DNA of 64,000 bases from an uncultured Actinomycetota bacterium (GTDB lineage Bacteria > Actinomycetota > Actinomycetes > BP-191): NCBI GenBank assembly GCA_963765815.1, contig CAVXXT010000008.1, positions 90,811 to 154,810 on the forward strand, in the 5' to 3' direction. Made by a program: the position numbers and the translations under genes. The notes beneath the pieces were generated by a model, which saw only the letters and a program-made list of their open reading frames with translations, ran no database searches and was not told the DNA's origin. Positions 13,695-25,482 of this stretch are shown in pieces. Position 1 is the first letter of the stretch. Every line of letters starts with the position of its first letter.

Positions 13695-13795
13695 GCTCAA
13701 CCTGCTTCCCTCAAACTCGCCCGGTCAACCGGCTGACTAGACCCCCCGCGGTGCCCTGCGGGGTCGAGTCAGCCGGTCAAGTAACCTGCCGCCTC

Positions 13796-14695
13796 ATGGG
13801 ACTCATGGACGGCAAGGTCGCGATCGTCACCGGCGCTGGACGTGGCATCGGCCGCGGCGAGGCGATGCTGCTCGCCGCTGAGGGCGCCAGCGTGGTGGTC
13901 AACGAGCTCGATCCTGACGTCGGCCAGTCGGTCGTCGACGAGATCCGCGCGGCCGGCGGCACCGCGGTGCTCGACACCGGCGACTGCTCGGAGATGGCGA
14001 CGGCCGAGCGGCTGGTGCACCACGCGATCGAGGAGTTCGGCACGCTCGACGCGCTGGTCAACAACGCCGGCATCCTGCGCGACCGCACCGTCGTGAAGAT
14101 GACGCCGGAGGAGTGGGACGCCGTCATCACGGTGCACCTGCGCGGCCACTACGCGCCGACGCACGTCGCCTGCGCGTGGTGGAAGGAGCAGGGCAAGCCG
14201 GGTCGCATCGTCTGCACAGCCAGCACCAGCGGGCTGCTCGGCAACTTCGGCCAGACCAACTACGGCGCGGCGAAGGCGGGCATCGCCGCGTTCTCGACGA
14301 TCGTCGCGCAGGAGATGGCGCGGTACGGCGTCACCTGCAACGCCATCGCGCCGGCCGCGCGGACCCGGATGACGGAGTCGGCGTACGGCGAGATCCCCGG
14401 CGGTGAGTCGACCGGCTTCGACTTCTGGCACCCGGACAACGTCGCGCCGATGGTCGTCTTCCTCTGCTCCGACGCGGCCGCGCACATCAGCGGCAAGGTC
14501 TTCGGCGTACAGGGCGACGCGGTCGAGCTCTACCGGCCGTTCACGTCCGTCGCGGTGGTCGACAACGGCGGCGCGACGTGGCAGCCGTCGGTGCTGGCCG
14601 GTCGCGTCGACGAGCTGTTCAGCGAGAGCGGCATCGTCCCGGGCGCCGAGAACATGATGGCCAAGCTCCGCTACACCATGACCGAGCGCTCCTAG
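13796..14695 (+). CDS. SDR-family oxidoreductase
   Basis: Rossmann TGAGRGIG motif, NNAG, and YGAAK catalytic motif. ATG 13796 (MGLMDGK). Confidence 0.85.
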   Translation: MGLMDGKVAIVTGAGRGIGRGEAMLLAAEGASVVVNELDPDVGQSVVDEIRAAGGTAVLDTGDCSEMATAERLVHHAIEEFGTLDALVNNAGILRDRTVVKMTPEEWDAVITVHLRGHYAPTHVACAWWKEQGKPGRIVCTASTSGLLGNFGQTNYGAAKAGIAAFSTIVAQEMARYGVTCNAIAPAARTRMTESAYGEIPGGESTGFDFWHPDNVAPMVVFLCSDAAAHISGKVFGVQGDAVELYRPFTSVAVVDNGGATWQPSVLAGRVDELFSESGIVPGAENMMAKLRYTMTERS

Positions 14696-14709
14696 CCCCC
14701 TTCTAACCG

Positions 14710-15657
14710 ATGATCTTGTGCTCGATCCACAGCCCAGCGCCTCAGCAACCTGATGATCTTGTGCTCGATCCACAGATCTGGGTGCCGCAACGGAGTTGAT
14801 GGCACCCCGCCCGCACGCTGGCTTGATGGATTCTCCCGGGCTCGTCGCGCGTCGCGTGAGGGTTGCTGAACTTTCCCGAGTGATCGACGCCTGCCGTTAC
14901 GTCGGCAACCCGTGCGCCCTCGCCGGGCTGACACTGGCGGTGCTCCGCGGCTGGGTCGACGCACCGATGCCCGTAGTGCCGCAGTTGGTCGCTCCGACGA
15001 CGAGGAAGCCCGTCTCGAAGGCGATCGCTGCCGTGCGTCGCATCGAGCACTGGGAGCAGCTGGCCGTCGAGCCCGGAGTCCTCGGCCTGCCGTGTCTCGG
15101 CGTACTCGACGGTCTGCTGACTCTTGCGCCGCATTGTGATGACGGGACCATGCACACCTTGATCCAGAGACTCGAATACGGCGGAGGGCTCGACGTCGTC
15201 GCCTGGACTCACCGCGCGAGGTCGAGGTGTTCAACGTTCTGCGCTTCCACGGCCTCGCACCAGATCACCTCAATGTCTTCGTCGAGACCCGTGATGGACA
15301 CAAGGTAGGCCCGTTCGACGGGTACGCCGAGTGCGGCGCGGCCTACGAGGTCGACGGCGTCGAGGTGCACACCGCTCCCGATCAGGTCGAGATCGACATG
15401 CGGAAGAACGAGCGGGCAGAGCGGCTCGACCTGCAGCTCGTTCGGTTCATGGGGATGGACATCACGAAACGTCAGCCGATGCTCGAGGCGTGGGCCGTGA
15501 CGCGCGAGGCCGCGCTCGGAGCTGACCTGCTAGGGCTGGAAGTTGTCCATCAACCCGGCGGAGATGTCCGTGCGGCCACGAGCCGGATGAGCCTGTGGAT
15601 TGAGCCCAAGATCATCAGGTTAGGGGCGAGCCCGGCTGTGGATTGAGCACAAGATCA
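14710..15657. mobile_element. Non-autonomous element bounded by duplicated IS30-type terminal inverted repeats (no transposase)
   Basis: ATGATCTTGTGCTCGATCCACAG at 14710-14732 and again at 14753-14775. CCTGTGGATTGAGCCCAAGATCATCA at 15592-15617 and CTGTGGATTGAGCACAAGATCA at 15636-15657. These are near-identical to the IRs of the IS30 copy at 23769-24955. Confidence 0.7.
14796..15646 (+). pseudogene. DUF559-type endonuclease-domain protein, frameshifted (inside the IR-bounded element)
   Basis: N-terminal part in ORF 14796..15308. C-terminal DUF559-like part (AAYEVDGVEVHTAPDQVEIDMRKNERAERLDLQLVRF) in ORF 15227..15646 in another frame. The frames switch near 15200-15235. Confidence 0.55.
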
Positions 15658-15683
15658 ACTTGTTCTGTGGTGGTCGTACGCGG

Positions 15684-17402
15684 TCAGCCGGCGGCGAGGG
15701 CGTCGACGGTCGCGACCGGCGCGGTCGTCGGGTCCGTGAGCGCGCTGCCGGCGACGCGCACGCGCAGCGTGTGCCGGCCGGGAGAGGCGTTGCCCTCCCA
15801 GAGCACCTGCCGCTGCTGGGTCGTGTCCGACCGCGGCGCGACGACAGCGGTGAGCACGCCGTCCATCCACACCTCGAGCTCGGCGACGTCGGGTCCGGTC
15901 GCGCCGATCACGGCGAAGCGCGTCCCGTCGGCGGTGGTCTCGACCGTCGCGCCCGGCCGTCGCGTCGTGTGCACGCTGCCCATCCACGAGCCGGCGACCG
16001 ACGACGACGCCCAGTTGGCGTCGAACGCGACATCGCTGTTGACGTTGTCTCGCGGTACGACGACCCGCTTGGCCGCCGACCACTCGCCGTAGTTGCCCGC
16101 CCGGTCGACGGCGCGCACCCGCAGGTCATGGCCGCCGGCGCCGCGCAGGGCGACCCGCGCCGCGAACGTCGACGGCGCGAGGCGCACCGGCTCGGTCCAC
16201 GCGCAGCCCTGACACACCGCGCGCGAGGAGATCTCCACCCGGTCTAGTCCCGCGCCGGGCGACGGGTCCGACGCCGCGAGCTGCACCGTCGCGGCCGGCT
16301 CGCCGCCGTCCTCGAGCGTGTAGATAGGCGAGGCGGTGATCGCGGCGGTTGGGCGGCCGAGCGGGTGCAGCTGCCAGGTCGAGGTCGCGACCGCGGACGG
16401 CAGCGGGCGGCCGCCGACGGCGAGCGTGAACGACTCCTGCACCGACCGGCTCGACGACACCGACGCTGCCTGCACCGGGAAGCTGACCCGCGCGACGCCA
16501 CCCGAGGGGACGGTCGCGCGCAGCGCGGTGGGCGTCGTCGCGGACGTCCACGTGCCGTCGGCCAGCGCGCTCTCGCGGCCGGCCGGCCAGGTCATGACCG
16601 ACACCGACGCCGGCGTCCACGCCGACCAGCCGAGATTGCGTACGACGTACGACGTGGTCGCTCGCTGCCCGCCCTCGAGGGTGCGCCCCGCGGTCGTCGC
16701 CGCGAACATCGGCAGGAGGTCGGCTCGGGTGACGCGACCGGTCGCACTGCCGATCGTCGAGGACCACCGTCCGTCGAGGTGGGCGACGTACCCGTGGCCT
16801 GACGTCGGCCGGTAGCCGCTGATCACGTTCTTCGGGTTGCTCACCGGGATCGGCGGGCTGTACGGCCGGATGCTCTCCGGCGGCGCTGCGATGTAGCGGA
16901 AGACCGAGTCGACGTAGCCCTCGGCGCGCGCGCCCGAGCCGTTGTAGCGGTAGGTCCCGCGGTACCAGTTCTCCAGCACGCGCTTGTCGTCGGCGCCGAG
17001 CCCGGCGGGGACGTTGGCGCTGGACTGCGACATCTTCGCGGCGAGGGCCTGCGCGCCGGCGTCGATGTTGTAGGCGTAGTCACGGCCGAGCCGCGCGTAG
17101 TCCCAGCTGCCGCCGGTGATCTGCATGATGCCGACGCCGCAGTCACCGCTGACCTTCGCCCGGCCGTCCGACCAGAACTGCTGCCAGCCGGACTCCTTCC
17201 ACGCGATCGCCTTGAGCAGCGAAGGCGGGACCTGGCGGCGCTGGGCGGCGGCGTCGATCGCCGCGCTGACCTGGGCGAAGCTCGGGTTGCGGCCGGTCTG
17301 CGCGCGCGCCGTGCTGCAGCCGCTGGCGAGAGCGGGCGAGACGGAGGTGGCGACCAGAGCGAGGGCGAGCGGGACACATGCGACGAGCCGGGGAAGGCGC
17401 AT
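15684..17402 (-). CDS. Secreted lytic transglycosylase (SLT domain) with C-terminal beta-rich domains
   Basis: Signal peptide. SLT motif AIAWKESGWQQF...GVGIMQI. 572 aa. Confidence 0.8.
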   Translation of the reverse strand: MRLPRLVACVPLALALVATSVSPALASGCSTARAQTGRNPSFAQVSAAIDAAAQRRQVPPSLLKAIAWKESGWQQFWSDGRAKVSGDCGVGIMQITGGSWDYARLGRDYAYNIDAGAQALAAKMSQSSANVPAGLGADDKRVLENWYRGTYRYNGSGARAEGYVDSVFRYIAAPPESIRPYSPPIPVSNPKNVISGYRPTSGHGYVAHLDGRWSSTIGSATGRVTRADLLPMFAATTAGRTLEGGQRATTSYVVRNLGWSAWTPASVSVMTWPAGRESALADGTWTSATTPTALRATVPSGGVARVSFPVQAASVSSSRSVQESFTLAVGGRPLPSAVATSTWQLHPLGRPTAAITASPIYTLEDGGEPAATVQLAASDPSPGAGLDRVEISSRAVCQGCAWTEPVRLAPSTFAARVALRGAGGHDLRVRAVDRAGNYGEWSAAKRVVVPRDNVNSDVAFDANWASSSVAGSWMGSVHTTRRPGATVETTADGTRFAVIGATGPDVAELEVWMDGVLTAVVAPRSDTTQQRQVLWEGNASPGRHTLRVRVAGSALTDPTTAPVATVDALAAG

Positions 17403-22977: not shown

Positions 22978-23768
22978 CCCGGCGCCTCTTCGCCAGCGAC
23001 CTCGACGGCACGCTGGTGCGCTCCGACGGCACGATCTCGGCGCGCAGCCGGGCAGCGATCGCCGCAGTCGAGGATGCGGGATCGGTGTTCGTGATGGTGA
23101 CCGGCCGTCCACCGCGCTGGATGTCCGGTGTCGCGCGGGACGCCGGCCATCACGGGCTGGCGATCTGCGCCAACGGCGCCGTCGTCTACGACCTGCACAC
23201 CGAGCAGGTCGTCACGTCGCACCTGCTGGAGGCTGACACGGCGCTCGACGTCGTCGCCGCGCTGCGCCGAGACGTGCCCGGCATCGCGTTCGCGCGAGAG
23301 AGCGGCACGGCGCGGTTCGGTCACGAGCCGGCGTACCGGCCGCGGTGGGACCAGGACGACAAGGACGTGCTCGACGTCGACGAGCTCGTCGTCGGAGGGG
23401 TCGTCAAGCTGCTCGCGCGGCATGAGGAGATGTCCGGCGACGAGCTGCTCGCGGCCGCGCGCGCGTCGCTGGGCGACCAGGTGGAGACCACGCACTCCTC
23501 CGCCGACGGGCTGTTGGAGATCAGCGCGCGAGGCATCTCGAAGGCGACGGGTCTGGCCGCACTCGCCGAGCGGCACGGCCTGGATGCCGCCGACTGCGTC
23601 GCGTTCGGCGACATGCCCAACGACCTGCCGATGCTCGTCTGGGCCGGCCGCGGCTACGCCGTCGCCAACGCGCACCCTGAGGTCCTCGACGCGGCCGACG
23701 AGGTCACGTCGAGCAACGACGACGACGGTGTCGCCCAGGTCCTCGAGCGCCTGCTCGCCCACCCCTAA
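22974..23768 (+). CDS. Cof-type HAD-IIB hydrolase
   Basis: DLDGTL motif 1 and C-terminal GDMPND. ATGA overlap with serS. Stop TAA 23766-23768 abuts the IS30 left end. Confidence 0.8.
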
Positions 23769-24955
23769 GTCATGATCTTGTGCTCAATCCACAGGAAGGG
23801 CGGGCTCAACCGGTTGTTGCAACGGGCCTCTGATGGAGAGGCTTGGTCATGGCTGGTTCTCGGATGTCGGAGCAGGATCGGGTTCGGATCGAGACGTTGT
23901 GGGCGGAGGGTCGGTCGATCCCGCACATCGCCGGGGTGATCGGCCGTCATCGGAGCACCGTCTGGCGAGAGCTGGCGGGACGGAACTCCTACCGTCACGG
24001 GCCGAAGAACCCGCAGGGTCGGCAGCGTGGTGGTGTCTACCGGTGGGGTTACGACGCGACGTGGGCCCAGGACGCGGCGTGGCGGGTGGCTCGTCGACGC
24101 CGCGCTGCGAAGCTCTCGGTCGGCACTGAGCTGCGGGAGCTCGTCGTCGGGATGCTGCGGCAGCGCTGGTCTCCGCAGCAGATCGCGGCCAGTCTTCGTC
24201 GGGACTATCCCGACCAGCCGGAGATGTGGGTGTCGCACGAGACGATCTACCGGGCGATCTACGTGCAGTCACGCGGTGGGCTGCGCGAGGAGCTGACCCG
24301 CCAGGTCGCGCTGCGCTCGGGCCGGGCGAGCCGACGCAAGCAGACCGTGCCCGGGGGCGCAGTGCGCTCGGCGAGAGCGTGGATCACACCAGACCTGCAC
24401 ATCAGCCAGCGGCCGGCCGAAGCGGCCGACCGGGCCGTGCCTGGTCATTGGGAGGGGGATCTGCTGATTGGTGCCGGTGGCCGCTCGGCGATCATCACCC
24501 TGGTCGAGCGCAGCACCCGCTACGTGATGCTCGGCAAGCTCCCCGGCGACCGAGCCAGCGAAGCGGTCATCGGCGTGCTGTCCGACCTGATCGGCCGGCT
24601 TCCGGAGCACCTGCGCCGATCGCTGGCCTGGGACTGCGGCACGGAGCTCGCTCAGCATGCGAAGTTCACGGTCGAATCAGGCTGCCCGGTCTACTTCTGC
24701 GACCCGCACAGCCCCTGGCAGCGCGGCAGCAACGAGAACACCAACGGCCTGCTCCGCCAGTACTTCCCCAAAGGCGAGGCCGACTTCCGCACCATCAGCC
24801 AGGACGAACTCGACGACGTCGCCGCCGGTCTCAACGGTCGACCCCGCATGACCCTTGACTGGAACAATCCAGCCGAGGCACTCAACGCGCTGCTCGTTGC
24901 ATCAGCCGCTTGAGACCGCCGCGTCGTTCCTGTGGATTGAGCACAAGATCATGAC
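23769..24955 (+). mobile_element. IS30-family insertion sequence, apparently intact
   Basis: 27-bp terminal inverted repeats GTCATGATCTTGTGCTCAATCCACAGG at 23769-23795 and its reverse complement at 24929-24955. They flank a single transposase ORF. Confidence 0.85.
23843..24913 (+). CDS. IS30-family transposase (DDE)
   Basis: 356 aa. N-terminal HTH, C-terminal DDE core (HWEGDLLIG...LAWDCGTEL...NENTNGLLRQYFPKG). Confidence 0.85.
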   Translation: MVMAGSRMSEQDRVRIETLWAEGRSIPHIAGVIGRHRSTVWRELAGRNSYRHGPKNPQGRQRGGVYRWGYDATWAQDAAWRVARRRRAAKLSVGTELRELVVGMLRQRWSPQQIAASLRRDYPDQPEMWVSHETIYRAIYVQSRGGLREELTRQVALRSGRASRRKQTVPGGAVRSARAWITPDLHISQRPAEAADRAVPGHWEGDLLIGAGGRSAIITLVERSTRYVMLGKLPGDRASEAVIGVLSDLIGRLPEHLRRSLAWDCGTELAQHAKFTVESGCPVYFCDPHSPWQRGSNENTNGLLRQYFPKGEADFRTISQDELDDVAAGLNGRPRMTLDWNNPAEALNALLVASAA

Positions 24956-24963
24956 CTGGGTCG

Positions 24964-25482
24964 TCAGAGGTAGGGGCCGCCGGTCTGGGGGGGCGGGCCG
25001 GGCTCGCCGCCGGGGAGCGCGCGACGGCGCTGCGACTCCTCGAGCTGGCTGCGCATCGCCATCTGCTGCGCGAAGATCGCGGTCTGGATGCCGTGGAAGA
25101 CGCCTTCGAGCCAGCCCACCAGCTGCGCCTGCGCGATCCGCAGCTCGGCGTCGGTCGGCGTCGTGTTCTCGTCGAAGGGCAACGAGAGCCGGCTGAGCTC
25201 CTCGCGCAGCTCGGGCGCGAGCCCCTCGGCCAGCTCGCGCACCGACGTCTGGTGGATGTCGCGCAGCCGGCTGCGCGAGGCCTCGTCCAGCGGCGCCGAC
25301 TTCACCTCTTCGAGCAGCTGCTTGATCATCGTGCCGATCCGCATGACCTTGGCGGGCTGCTCGACCAGGTCGGTGAGTCCGGCGACGCCGCCACCGGTCC
25401 CCTCGATGGACGGCTCCTGCTCCGGGTGGGGTCCGACGGAGGCGTCGACGACCTCGACGGTGGGCTCGGGCTGCTCGGTCAT
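24964..25482 (-). CDS. bpa: Bacterial proteasome activator Bpa/PafE
   Basis: Strong similarity to M. tuberculosis Bpa core (SLTDLVEQPAKVMRIGTMIKQLLEEV...AELRIAQAQLVGWLEGLFHGIQTA). C-terminus GPYL. ATG 25482 overlaps the qor stop (ATGA). Confidence 0.8.
   Translation of the reverse strand: MTEQPEPTVEVVDASVGPHPEQEPSIEGTGGGVAGLTDLVEQPAKVMRIGTMIKQLLEEVKSAPLDEASRSRLRDIHQTSVRELAEGLAPELREELSRLSLPFDENTTPTDAELRIAQAQLVGWLEGVFHGIQTAIFAQQMAMRSQLEESQRRRALPGGEPGPPPQTGGPYL

What the first reader, a model, noticed from the sequence alone, without database searches (positions are those of the whole stretch)
14707..15660. DUF559 endonuclease-like pseudogene inside a roughly 950-bp element bounded by duplicated IS30 terminal repeats
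Directly after the SDR stop codon there are two tandem copies of the IS30 left inverted repeat (14710-14732 and 14753-14775, 20 bp apart). 820 bp further on there are two tandem copies of the right inverted repeat (15592-15617 and 15636-15657, 18 bp apart). All are at most 2 mismatches from the IRs of the intact IS30 at 23769-24955. There is no transposase between them. The interior encodes a DUF559-type endonuclease-domain protein that is split by a frameshift near 15200-15235. IS30-family transposases are known to target their own IR sequences. That would explain the nested IRL-IRL...IRR-IRR pattern. It also implies the DUF559 cargo could be mobilised in trans by the nearby intact copy, in a MITE-like or cargo-carrying non-autonomous arrangement. 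DUF559 genes are multi-copy in many actinobacterial genomes and no mobility mechanism is established for them.
Basis: seen in the sequence. Interest (0 to 1): 0.7.

Follow-up and report, generated by a model that had tools for sequence, protein, structure and literature searches.

The report
Nuclease cassette with doubled IS30 ends
A roughly 950-bp piece of inserted DNA, bounded on each side by two copies of the end sequence of a nearby IS30 jumping gene, carries a broken nuclease gene instead of a transposase. It belongs to a small, previously undescribed family of such nuclease cassettes found in related soil actinobacteria.

Summary
Four copies of the IS30 end sequence (0-1 mismatch over 21 nt) lie at 14712, 14755 (+) and 15593, 15636 (-), at a 43-bp period on each side. 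They match the ends of an intact IS30 at 23774-24950.

The interior is not a Pfam DUF559 member. It is a rare roughly 280-aa protein with an AbiEi-like N-domain and a Vsr/DUF559-fold nuclease C-domain. Here it is a pseudogene, with a roughly 76-nt deletion and a 1-nt deletion.

All ten fetched contigs of the core family (eight proteins) carry tandem IS30-type repeats; six show them on both sides in inverted orientation, and those six cover four of the five chromosomal contexts. Three relatives have an empty site exactly where the window and one relative are occupied. The cargo is under purifying selection elsewhere (dN/dS 0.16-0.43).

My best reading is a decayed, non-autonomous, IS30-dependent insertion cassette (MIC-like) with multi-copy ends. 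Mobilisation in trans is inferred, not shown.

Published IR-targeting gives abutted IRL-IRR junctions, not direct repeats 22 nt apart.

Verdict: new variant of a known kind, moderately interesting.

The parts
13751..14695 (+). Upstream host gene, a short-chain dehydrogenase. Its TAG stop at 14693-14695 lies 16 nt before the first repeat core.
   Evidence: ORF. Pfam adh_short at E=2.7e-44. Orthologous SDR genes abut the SLT-like gene in the empty sites L021-L024.
14696..14711 (+). Outward motif of the outer left unit, CCCCCTTCTAACCGAT: a C-rich run, then CTAAC, then GAT.
   Evidence: The same type of motif precedes 23 of the 29 cassette or solo repeat copies listed with a full 16-nt flank (two further copies are cut by contig ends), and also the IS30 left end; the IS30 right end lacks it.
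14712..14732 (+). Outer left IS30-type repeat core, GATCTTGTGCTCGATCCACAG, with 1 mismatch to the IS30 end.
14733..14754 (+). Spacer, which also serves as the outward motif of the inner left unit. It ends in AACCTGAT, one half of the palindrome AACCTG-AT-CAGGTT.
   Evidence: Its partner ATCAGGTT lies at 15614-15621.
14755..14775 (+). Inner left IS30-type repeat core (1 mismatch).
14826..15603 (+). Pseudogene of the cassette protein, which has an AbiEi-like N-domain and a Vsr/DUF559-fold nuclease C-domain ending in CxCGH. It starts at ATG 14826. A deletion of roughly 76 nt, with a frame change, lies around 15203-15224. A 1-nt deletion lies near 15558-15562. The original TGA stop is at 15601-15603, inside the inner right repeat.
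   Evidence: Translations. Alignment A1. tblastn: P0001 residues 1-134 match 14826-15224 at 62% identity, and residues 153-271 match 15203-15559 at 60.5%. Fold evidence, remote relatives.
15593..15613 (-). Inner right IS30-type repeat core (1 mismatch). It encodes the last codons and the stop of the cargo.
   Evidence: L001 and L002 have the same arrangement.
15614..15635 (-). Spacer, which also serves as the outward motif of the inner right unit, ATCAGGTTAGGGGCGAGCCCGG. Read on the minus strand it gives CCCCTAACCTGAT.
15636..15656 (-). Outer right IS30-type repeat core (0 mismatches).
15684..17402 (-). Downstream host gene, convergent with the SDR: a 572-aa secreted protein with a faint SLT-transglycosylase match. 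I used it to find orthologous occupied and empty sites.
23774..24950 (+). Intact IS30-family element of 1177 bp, counted from GATC to GATC. Its two ends are identical over 29 nt. The transposase gene is at 23849-24913. AT dinucleotides flank it at 23772-73 and 24951-52, inside the palindrome GTC-AT-GAC. It sits between convergent genes. It is the candidate source of transposase in trans.
   Evidence: NCBIfam transpos_IS30 at 250 bits, E=3e-74. Pfam HTH_38 plus rve. Repeat matches.

Best explanation
The segment 14696-15658 is a decayed copy of a non-autonomous insertion cassette. It is of the 'mobile insertion cassette' kind: insertion-sequence ends without a transposase.

Its ends are tandem copies of a roughly 40-nt unit. 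The core of each unit is the terminal inverted repeat of one particular IS30 lineage, and an intact member of that lineage sits 8 kb away.

The cargo is a dedicated roughly 280-aa protein with an AbiEi-like domain and a Vsr/DUF559-fold PD-(D/E)xK nuclease. The gene and its doubled ends travel together as one unit.

The unit entered the short intergenic gap between the convergent SDR and SLT-like genes in an ancestor shared with the L001 lineage. In the window's lineage the nuclease gene has since died, while the repeat cores stayed almost identical to the resident IS30 ends.

Shown: the repeats, the absence of a transposase, the insertion against empty sites, the family-wide linkage of gene and repeats, and purifying selection on intact cargo.

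Inferred: movement is carried out in trans by the IS30-family transposase binding the repeat cores, into palindromic targets with a 2-bp duplication. The extra copies per end arise by nested insertion and/or tandem duplication of the unit, and may act as additional transposase-binding sites.
For: (1) Repeat cores match the ends of the intact IS30 at 0-1 mismatch in 21 nt, six sites against 0 expected. IS30 relatives at about 50% identity have unrelated ends, so the match is lineage-specific.

(2) The interior has no transposase.

(3) Insertion is demonstrated. The SLT-like and SDR genes are separated by only 73, 4 and 18 bp in L021, L022 and L023/L024 (SLT identity to the window 74%, 65% and 63%). 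In the window they are 988 bp apart. L001 also carries a cassette directly beside the SLT-like gene, although that contig ends before the SDR side. L021 holds no repeat remnant above chance. A distance (NJ) tree of the SLT-like protein groups the window with L001.

(4) All ten fetched contigs of the core family (L001-L009 and L028, encoding eight proteins) carry 1-3 IS30-type repeats per visible side, and about seven short units on the left of L028. Six contigs (L001-L004, L006, L007) show tandem copies on both sides in inverted orientation; L005 has two left and one right, L008 and L009 show only the right side, and L028 carries short 17-bp units. The five contexts are SDR|SLT, PadR|DUF5318, FGGY|PepX, next to LigD, and M19|beta-lactamase.

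(5) The repeat variants (21-nt and 23-nt classes) differ between lineages but are uniform within a locus.

(6) The cargo is functional elsewhere: dN/dS is 0.16-0.43 with dS around 1, and alignment A2 has 77 invariant columns.

(7) The inner pair, 14755-15613, is flanked by AT and AT inside a perfect 14-bp palindrome, AACCTG-AT-CAGGTT. The IS30 itself is flanked by AT and AT inside GTC-AT-GAC. This fits the published IS30 pattern of a 2-bp duplication in near-palindromic hot spots (PMC9333248).

(8) The cargo stop codon lies inside or next to the first right repeat, which is the compact layout typical of an insertion sequence.
Against: - There is only one copy in the 64-kb window, and I could not search the rest of the genome.
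- No co-resident IS30 could be checked in the other cassette-bearing genomes.
- Occupied sites look vertically inherited over long times. Window against L001: flanking genes 69-85% identical, cargo 55-62%. L003 against L006: PadR 96%, DUF5318 75%, cargo 70%. Transposition is therefore rare at best. Passive decay alone also does not explain why 21-nt cores stay near-perfect while synonymous sites are saturated.
- The flanking 'AT' could belong to the repeat rather than be a target duplication. The outer pair is flanked by AT and AA.
- A dedicated, conserved nuclease cargo is unusual for a passive passenger.
- A more distant relative, P0022, is flanked by a different arrangement: hairpin-type TGATCTGTGCGTGC repeats.
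Confidence: 0.6

Rival explanations
1. The nuclease itself is the selfish engine. On this view the cassette is a free-standing homing-endonuclease-like gene, or a novel nuclease-driven transposon. The flanking repeat units are the nuclease's own recognition or protection sites, and the IS30 lineage merely shares or has borrowed those ends.
For: - The gene family is strictly linked to TGATC-type repeats. Even a 33%-identical relative is flanked by a different repeat arrangement.
- The cargo is under purifying selection.
- IS30 presence is unverified in the other genomes.
Against: - The repeat cores equal the ends of a canonical DDE-transposase IS30 over at least 21 nt.
- To my knowledge, no Vsr-fold nuclease is known to carry out transposition on its own.
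- The window's repeats stay near-perfect although its nuclease is dead.
- The structure model is only moderate (pLDDT 65).
Confidence: 0.15
2. The unit is a host-retained or IS-regulating module. The repeat arrays act as decoy or landing sites that titrate or attract the IS30 transposase. The nuclease acts on IS30 intermediates or on DNA bound at those sites. The unit is kept for that function rather than for its own transposition.
For: - Long-term residence at the same loci, with conserved repeat cores, despite saturated synonymous divergence.
- Repeat spacings cluster near multiples of 10.5 bp: 32, 39-44 and 62-63 bp, P about 4e-4 for 14 arrays that are not independent.
- A solo two-copy array without cargo lies between the M16 peptidase and dapB genes in the same MAG as L003.
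- IS30 transposase is known to target its own ends (PMC9333248).
Against: - Presence is patchy, with empty sites in close relatives.
- The gene is decaying in the window.
- The family is very rare.
- The regular period is also explained simply by abutting units of roughly 42 nt.
- No functional data exist.
Confidence: 0.12
3. A native chromosomal gene became trapped between scars of successive IS30 insertions that targeted each other's ends (IR-targeting), followed by loss of the transposase genes.
For: IS30-family elements do target their own ends (PMC9333248), and an intact IS30 is nearby.
Against: - The gene and repeats are absent together from the orthologous empty sites.
- The same gene family sits within repeats in five unrelated contexts.
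- IR-targeting produces abutted IRL-IRR junctions, not direct repeats at a 43-bp period (compared).
- No transposase remnants lie between the copies.
Confidence: 0.05

Closest known systems
Mobile insertion cassettes (MICs), for example the MIC231 derivatives of IS231 in the Bacillus cereus group
   Same: IS-type terminal inverted repeats identical to those of a co-resident autonomous IS, no transposase, and one passenger gene between the ends. Movement is presumed to occur in trans. The concept is taken from the literature listed.
   Different: - The ends come from the IS30 family. My searches found no paper describing an IS30-derived MIC.
- Each end is present in 2-3 tandem copies.
- The passenger is the same dedicated nuclease family in every member, rather than assorted captured genes.
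- Copies appear to be long-term residents of their sites.
IS30-family insertion sequences, including the intact copy at 23774-24950
   Same: The same terminal sequence, the same compact layout with the stop codon at the right end, insertion between convergent genes, and AT flanks within a palindromic site.
   Different: It has no DDE transposase. It has doubled ends where the IS30 has single ends. It is 945 bp long against 1177 bp.
AbiEi_4 plus DUF559 / DUF2726 / MTES_1575 nuclease-domain proteins of actinobacteria
   Same: These are remote homologues over both domains (HMM E-values from 1e-10 to 1e-3). The C-domain fold matches Vsr and NGO0050.
   Different: - The core family lacks the N-terminal AbiEi_4 winged helix.
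- It falls below all Pfam thresholds.
- It has a conserved C-terminal RxCxCGH tail.
- It is tied to IS30-type repeats.
Transposon ends with several transposase-binding sites (Mu L1-L3 and R1-R3, TnsB sites in Tn7). This comparison is from my own knowledge.
   Same: Several direct copies of the transposase recognition sequence at each end, in inverted orientation between the two ends.
   Different: Those systems have characterised multi-protein transpososomes. Here binding is untested, copy number varies between relatives, and the parent IS30 has single ends.

Membership tests
Mobile insertion cassette / non-autonomous IS derivative | Terminal inverted repeats matching those of an autonomous IS in the same genome | tested here: met
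   0-1 mismatch in 21 nt to the IS30 at 23774-24950. Six sites against 0 expected.
Mobile insertion cassette / non-autonomous IS derivative | No transposase gene between the ends, and a passenger gene unrelated to transposases | tested here: met
   ORF list and Pfam scan. tblastn with the IS30 transposase hits only 23849-24910 in the window. The cargo is an AbiEi-like / Vsr-fold protein.
Mobile insertion cassette / non-autonomous IS derivative | Presence/absence polymorphism at orthologous sites, showing an insertion | tested here: met
   Occupied in the window and L001. Empty in L021, L022 and L023/L024, with 73, 4 and 18 bp between the stop codons.
Mobile insertion cassette / non-autonomous IS derivative | Target-site duplication typical of the parent IS (2 bp for IS30) | tested here: inconclusive
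   The inner pair and the IS30 are each flanked by AT and AT. The outer pair is flanked by AT and AA. The AT may be part of the repeat itself.
Mobile insertion cassette / non-autonomous IS derivative | Mobilisation by the parent transposase supplied in trans | not testable with these tools
   This needs a transposition assay.
Mobile insertion cassette / non-autonomous IS derivative | More than one copy, or copies in different contexts, within one genome | tested here: inconclusive
   The window holds one copy. The one MAG with two fetched contigs has a cassette (L003) and a solo array (L017).
Pfam DUF559 (PF04480) | Match to the family HMM above the gathering score | tested here: not met
   No hit for either ORF piece, for the stitched protein at E up to 10, or for any of the 21 family members. 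Only remote relatives reach DUF559 at E=1e-4 to 4e-3.
Vsr-like PD-(D/E)xK nuclease fold | Structural similarity of the C-domain to Vsr or DUF559 structures | tested here: met
Product of IS30 IR-targeting | Abutted IRL-IRR junction between the targeted end and the donor end | tested here: not met
   The copies are direct repeats, with 22 nt between cores. The definition is from PMC9333248.
MITE | Small size (typically under about 300 bp) and non-coding | tested here: not met
   The element is 945 bp and holds an ORF. By my inference, the outer pair plus its spacers alone would make an 84-bp MITE-like shell.
Autonomous IS30-family element | IS30-family DDE transposase between the ends | tested here: not met
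   Not met for 14712-15656. Met for 23774-24950 (NCBIfam transpos_IS30 at 250 bits).

The most novel reading that the evidence does not exclude
The cassette family may be an ancient, dedicated partner of one IS30 lineage rather than a passive passenger. On this reading its Vsr-fold nuclease works on IS30-type ends or on their palindromic targets. For example, it could make a second-strand or target cut in the way TnsA does for Tn7, or it could home the cassette into sites marked by IS30 ends. The phased multi-copy ends would assemble a transposase-nuclease complex. That would be a two-component transposition or homing system built on an IS30 transposase supplied from elsewhere in the genome.
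Probability: 0.15. Interest if true: 0.8.

Novelty: new variant of a known kind. Interest (0 to 1): 0.6.

Why it matters
- Insertion-sequence ends that carry something other than a transposase are one of the ways genes become mobile. No IS30-derived cassette family with a fixed nuclease cargo and multi-copy ends turned up in my literature searches.
- The family gives a concrete, testable link between AbiEi/DUF559-type nuclease genes of actinobacteria, whose function and spread are unexplained, and a defined transposase.
- The near-perfect conservation of the repeat cores around a dead gene, at sites inherited over long times, poses a clear question: what maintains transposon ends that no longer seem to move?
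- On the practical side, these units break metagenome assemblies. Many family members sit on contigs of about 1 kb that end in the repeats. The units could also be mis-annotated as IS30 fragments.

Tried and rejected
- Direct Pfam and NCBIfam scans of the ORF pieces and of the stitched protein: no hit.
- Profile search against PDB sequences: nothing below E=0.9.
- tblastn of P0001 against 72,556 plasmids: no match.
- Metagenome scan with the family alignment: it returned only L002 again.
- Genome-collection scan for tandem repeat arrays: 10 hits, about the number I estimated for chance from the pattern's specificity. Only L017 is real. The window's own genome was not found, so it is apparently not in that collection.
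- Viral-contig scans for the protein and for the arrays: nothing relevant.
- Search for a repeat remnant in the 73-bp empty site of L021: scores were within the shuffle range.
- Rfam on the whole window: no family.
- Promoter and terminator scan of 14500-15900: none.
- PADLOC defence models: only weak AbiEi hits.
- Checking whether IS30 relatives share these ends: three plasmid IS30s at about 50% identity have unrelated ends.
- Considered and rejected: a CRISPR-like array, because the units are too short and too few and they are inverted on the two sides of a gene.
- Considered and rejected: chance repeats.
- Considered and rejected: IR-targeting scars.
- Helical phasing of the repeats is suggestive. 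I do not rely on it, because abutting units of roughly 42 nt give the same period.

Full report
**1. The observation**

Reading 14400-16000 and 23600-25100 and searching for the 21-mer GATCTTGTGCTCAATCCACAG with up to 3 mismatches gives exactly six sites in the 64-kb window:
- 14712 and 14755 on the plus strand;
- 15593 and 15636 on the minus strand;
- the two ends of an IS at 23774 (+) and 24930 (-).

None has more than 1 mismatch. None was expected in 100 dinucleotide-preserving shuffles.

The two copies on each side are 43 bp apart start to start. The compound arms 14711-14775 and 15593-15657 are 83% complementary over 65 nt.

The element at 23774-24950 encodes a 354-aa protein that matches the NCBIfam IS30 transposase model at 250 bits, and Pfam HTH_38 plus rve. 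Its two ends are identical over 29 nt.

No transposase lies between 14775 and 15593.

**2. What the interior encodes**

Neither ORF piece, nor a stitched 283-aa translation, hits any Pfam or NCBIfam model, DUF559 included, even at E=10.

A search of 5.8 billion proteins found only seven relatives of about 280 aa, at 44-55% identity and with no Pfam domains. A full HMM search of 1.84 billion cluster representatives found 16 at E<1e-30 and 134 at E<1e-3.

The remote relatives are about 320-aa proteins with three parts:
- an N-terminal AbiEi_4 winged helix;
- an AbiEi_1-like middle domain;
- a C-terminal region that scores weakly on DUF559, DUF2726 and MTES_1575.

The core family lacks the first roughly 50 residues.

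'DUF559-type nuclease domain' is therefore right at the fold level and wrong as a family assignment. The family is rare, not multi-copy.

**3. State of the gene in the window**

Against its homologues (alignment A1; tblastn) the window copy:
- starts at ATG 14826;
- lacks a counterpart to P0001 residues 135-152 (the same lesion appears as a 24-column gap in alignment A1), with a frame change around 15203-15224, which I read as a deletion of roughly 76 nt;
- has a second, 1-nt deletion near 15558-15562.

In the restored frame the C-terminus reads RRCPCGHEPDEPVD*. It ends at TGA 15601-15603, inside the inner right repeat, exactly as in L001 and L002. It is a pseudogene.

**4. The family-wide picture**

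I fetched the DNA around all accessible homologues.

All ten fetched contigs of the core family (L001-L009 and L028, encoding eight proteins) carry repeats of the same type, GATCTTG...TCCACAG, in 21-nt or 23-nt variants.
- Six contigs (L001-L004, L006, L007) show tandem copies on both sides in inverted orientation.
- L005 has two copies on the left and one on the right. In L008 and L009 only the right side shows them.
- Copy number is 1-3 per visible side.
- L028 instead has short 17-bp units, about seven on the left and three on the right.

L001/L002 carry three copies on the right and two to three on the left, at the same 43-bp period as the window.

23 of the 29 cassette or solo repeat copies that have a full 16-nt flank are preceded on the outward side by a C-rich run, then (C)TAAC, then 2-4 nt, then (A/G)T. 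Two further copies are cut by contig ends, and the IS30's right end lacks the motif. The real unit is therefore about 37-43 nt.

The units sit in at least five chromosomal contexts:
- SDR|SLT-like (the window and L001);
- PadR|DUF5318 (L003, L006, L007);
- FGGY kinase|PepX (L005);
- next to LigD (L008);
- M19 peptidase|beta-lactamase (L028).

Intact copies evolve under purifying selection (dN/dS 0.16-0.43, dS around 1).

A 33%-identical relative, P0022, is flanked on each side by a hairpin-type pair, TGATCTGTGCGTGC...GCACGCACAGATCA.

A solo two-copy array without cargo lies between an M16 peptidase gene and dapB, in the same MAG that carries L003.

**5. It is an insertion**

L001 is syntenic with the window. 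The downstream SLT-like protein is 69% identical and the next gene 85% identical.

Three further relatives have the SLT-like and SDR genes directly convergent, with only 73, 4 and 18 bp between their stop codons and no repeat remnant above chance.

A distance (NJ) tree of the SLT-like protein groups the window with L001, and puts L021 outside them. One insertion in their common ancestor is the simplest history.

At the PadR|DUF5318 site, the identities between L003 and L006 are 96% for PadR, 75% for DUF5318 and 70% for the cargo. This again looks like vertical inheritance.

**6. Mechanism**

The repeat cores are the ends of a specific IS30 lineage. IS30 relatives at about 50% identity have quite different ends.

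In the window, the inner pair (14755-15613) is flanked by AT and AT within a perfect palindrome, AACCTG-AT-CAGGTT. The intact IS30 is flanked by AT and AT within GTC-AT-GAC. This fits the published IS30 rule of a 2-bp duplication in near-palindromic hot spots (PMC9333248). The AT could, however, belong to the repeat itself.

The same paper states that insertion next to an IS30 end yields exclusively abutted IRL-IRR junctions.

Two routes to doubled ends remain:
- Nested insertion. The cassette would have inserted into the palindromic centre of an 84-bp shell made of two ends.
- Tandem duplication of the roughly 42-nt unit. This has clearly happened in L002, L006 and L028, where the spacers are identical between units.

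Spacings cluster near multiples of 10.5 bp. Abutting units explain that equally well.

I conclude that this is a non-autonomous, IS30-dependent cassette with a dedicated nuclease cargo. Trans-mobilisation is inferred, not shown.

**7. What does not fit comfortably**

The sites are old and the synonymous sites are saturated. Even so, the 21-nt cores are nearly identical to the resident IS30's ends, and this holds even around the dead gene in the window. Passive decay does not predict that.

Three explanations remain open:
- gene conversion against IS30 copies;
- repeated re-insertion at a site already marked by ends;
- selection on the repeats themselves, as transposase-binding or decoy sites.

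A strictly conserved nuclease cargo also hints that the protein has a role in the element's own biology. These points motivate the rival explanations and the novel case.

**8. Comparison with known systems and novelty**

The closest known category is the mobile insertion cassette: IS ends, no transposase and a passenger gene (literature).

I found no paper that describes an IS30-derived cassette, a nuclease of this type between IS ends, or IS30 ends in tandem.

It fails the membership tests for Pfam DUF559, for a MITE, for an autonomous IS30 and for an IR-targeting product. It meets the structural criteria for a MIC, but not the functional one, which is untestable here.

I rate it a new variant of a known kind, of moderate interest (0.6). 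There is a 15% chance that the nuclease is an active partner of the IS30 transposase, which would be considerably more interesting.

Noticed in passing
window 23769-24955: The intact IS30 sits in the short gap between two convergent genes. The upstream gene's TAA stop is at 23766-68 and the downstream gene's stop is at 24964-66. The element is flanked by AT and AT inside the palindrome GTC-AT-GAC. Its left flank, CCCCTAAGTCAT, resembles the outward motif of the cassette repeat units.
   Followed up: partly
L017 1860-1945 (DATLNF010000069.1, the same MAG as L003): A solo tandem pair of IS30-type repeats, GATCTTGCTGC(T/C)GCCCTCCACAG, at a 41-bp period. It lies between an M16 peptidase gene and dapB, with no cargo and no inverted partner within 8 kb. 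Its variant differs from that of the cassette in the same MAG and equals one of the L006 copies.
   Followed up: partly
L028 9581-9730 and 10610-10680: In this cassette the ends have turned into microsatellite-like arrays of a 17-bp unit, GATCTTGAACTCCCCAC: about seven copies on the left and three on the right. Directly beyond the right array there is what reads, by eye only, like the C-terminal fragment of an IS110-family transposase.
   Followed up: no
L001 1110-1175; also L003 6895-6920, L005 6200-6225, L008 895-950: Long G-rich runs of the form (GGGGGA)n lie immediately outside the right-hand repeat arrays, mirrored by C-rich runs outside the left arrays. In L001 the run is about 65 nt long.
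   Followed up: no
L025 1487-1600 and 2590-2650 (the same in L026): The more distant relative P0022 is flanked on both sides by roughly 55-bp hairpin-type elements, TGATCTGTGCGTGC...GCACGCACAGATCA. Its stop codon lies in the first of these. The gene lies next to a LigD primase-polymerase gene, and the core-family copy in L008 also lies next to a LigD-like gene.
   Followed up: no
L002, L004, L007, L009 (whole contigs of 947-1187 bp): Several family members sit on contigs that begin and end inside the repeat arrays. The repeats evidently break short-read assemblies, which suggests the end sequence is multi-copy in those genomes.
   Followed up: no
L021 3018-3644: The closest empty-site relative has an extra aminoglycoside-phosphotransferase-like gene (PF01636) between the 381-aa membrane-protein gene and the SLT-like gene. 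The window and L001 do not have it.
   Followed up: no
window 1-64000: No Rfam family reaches its gathering score anywhere in the 64-kb window.
   Followed up: yes
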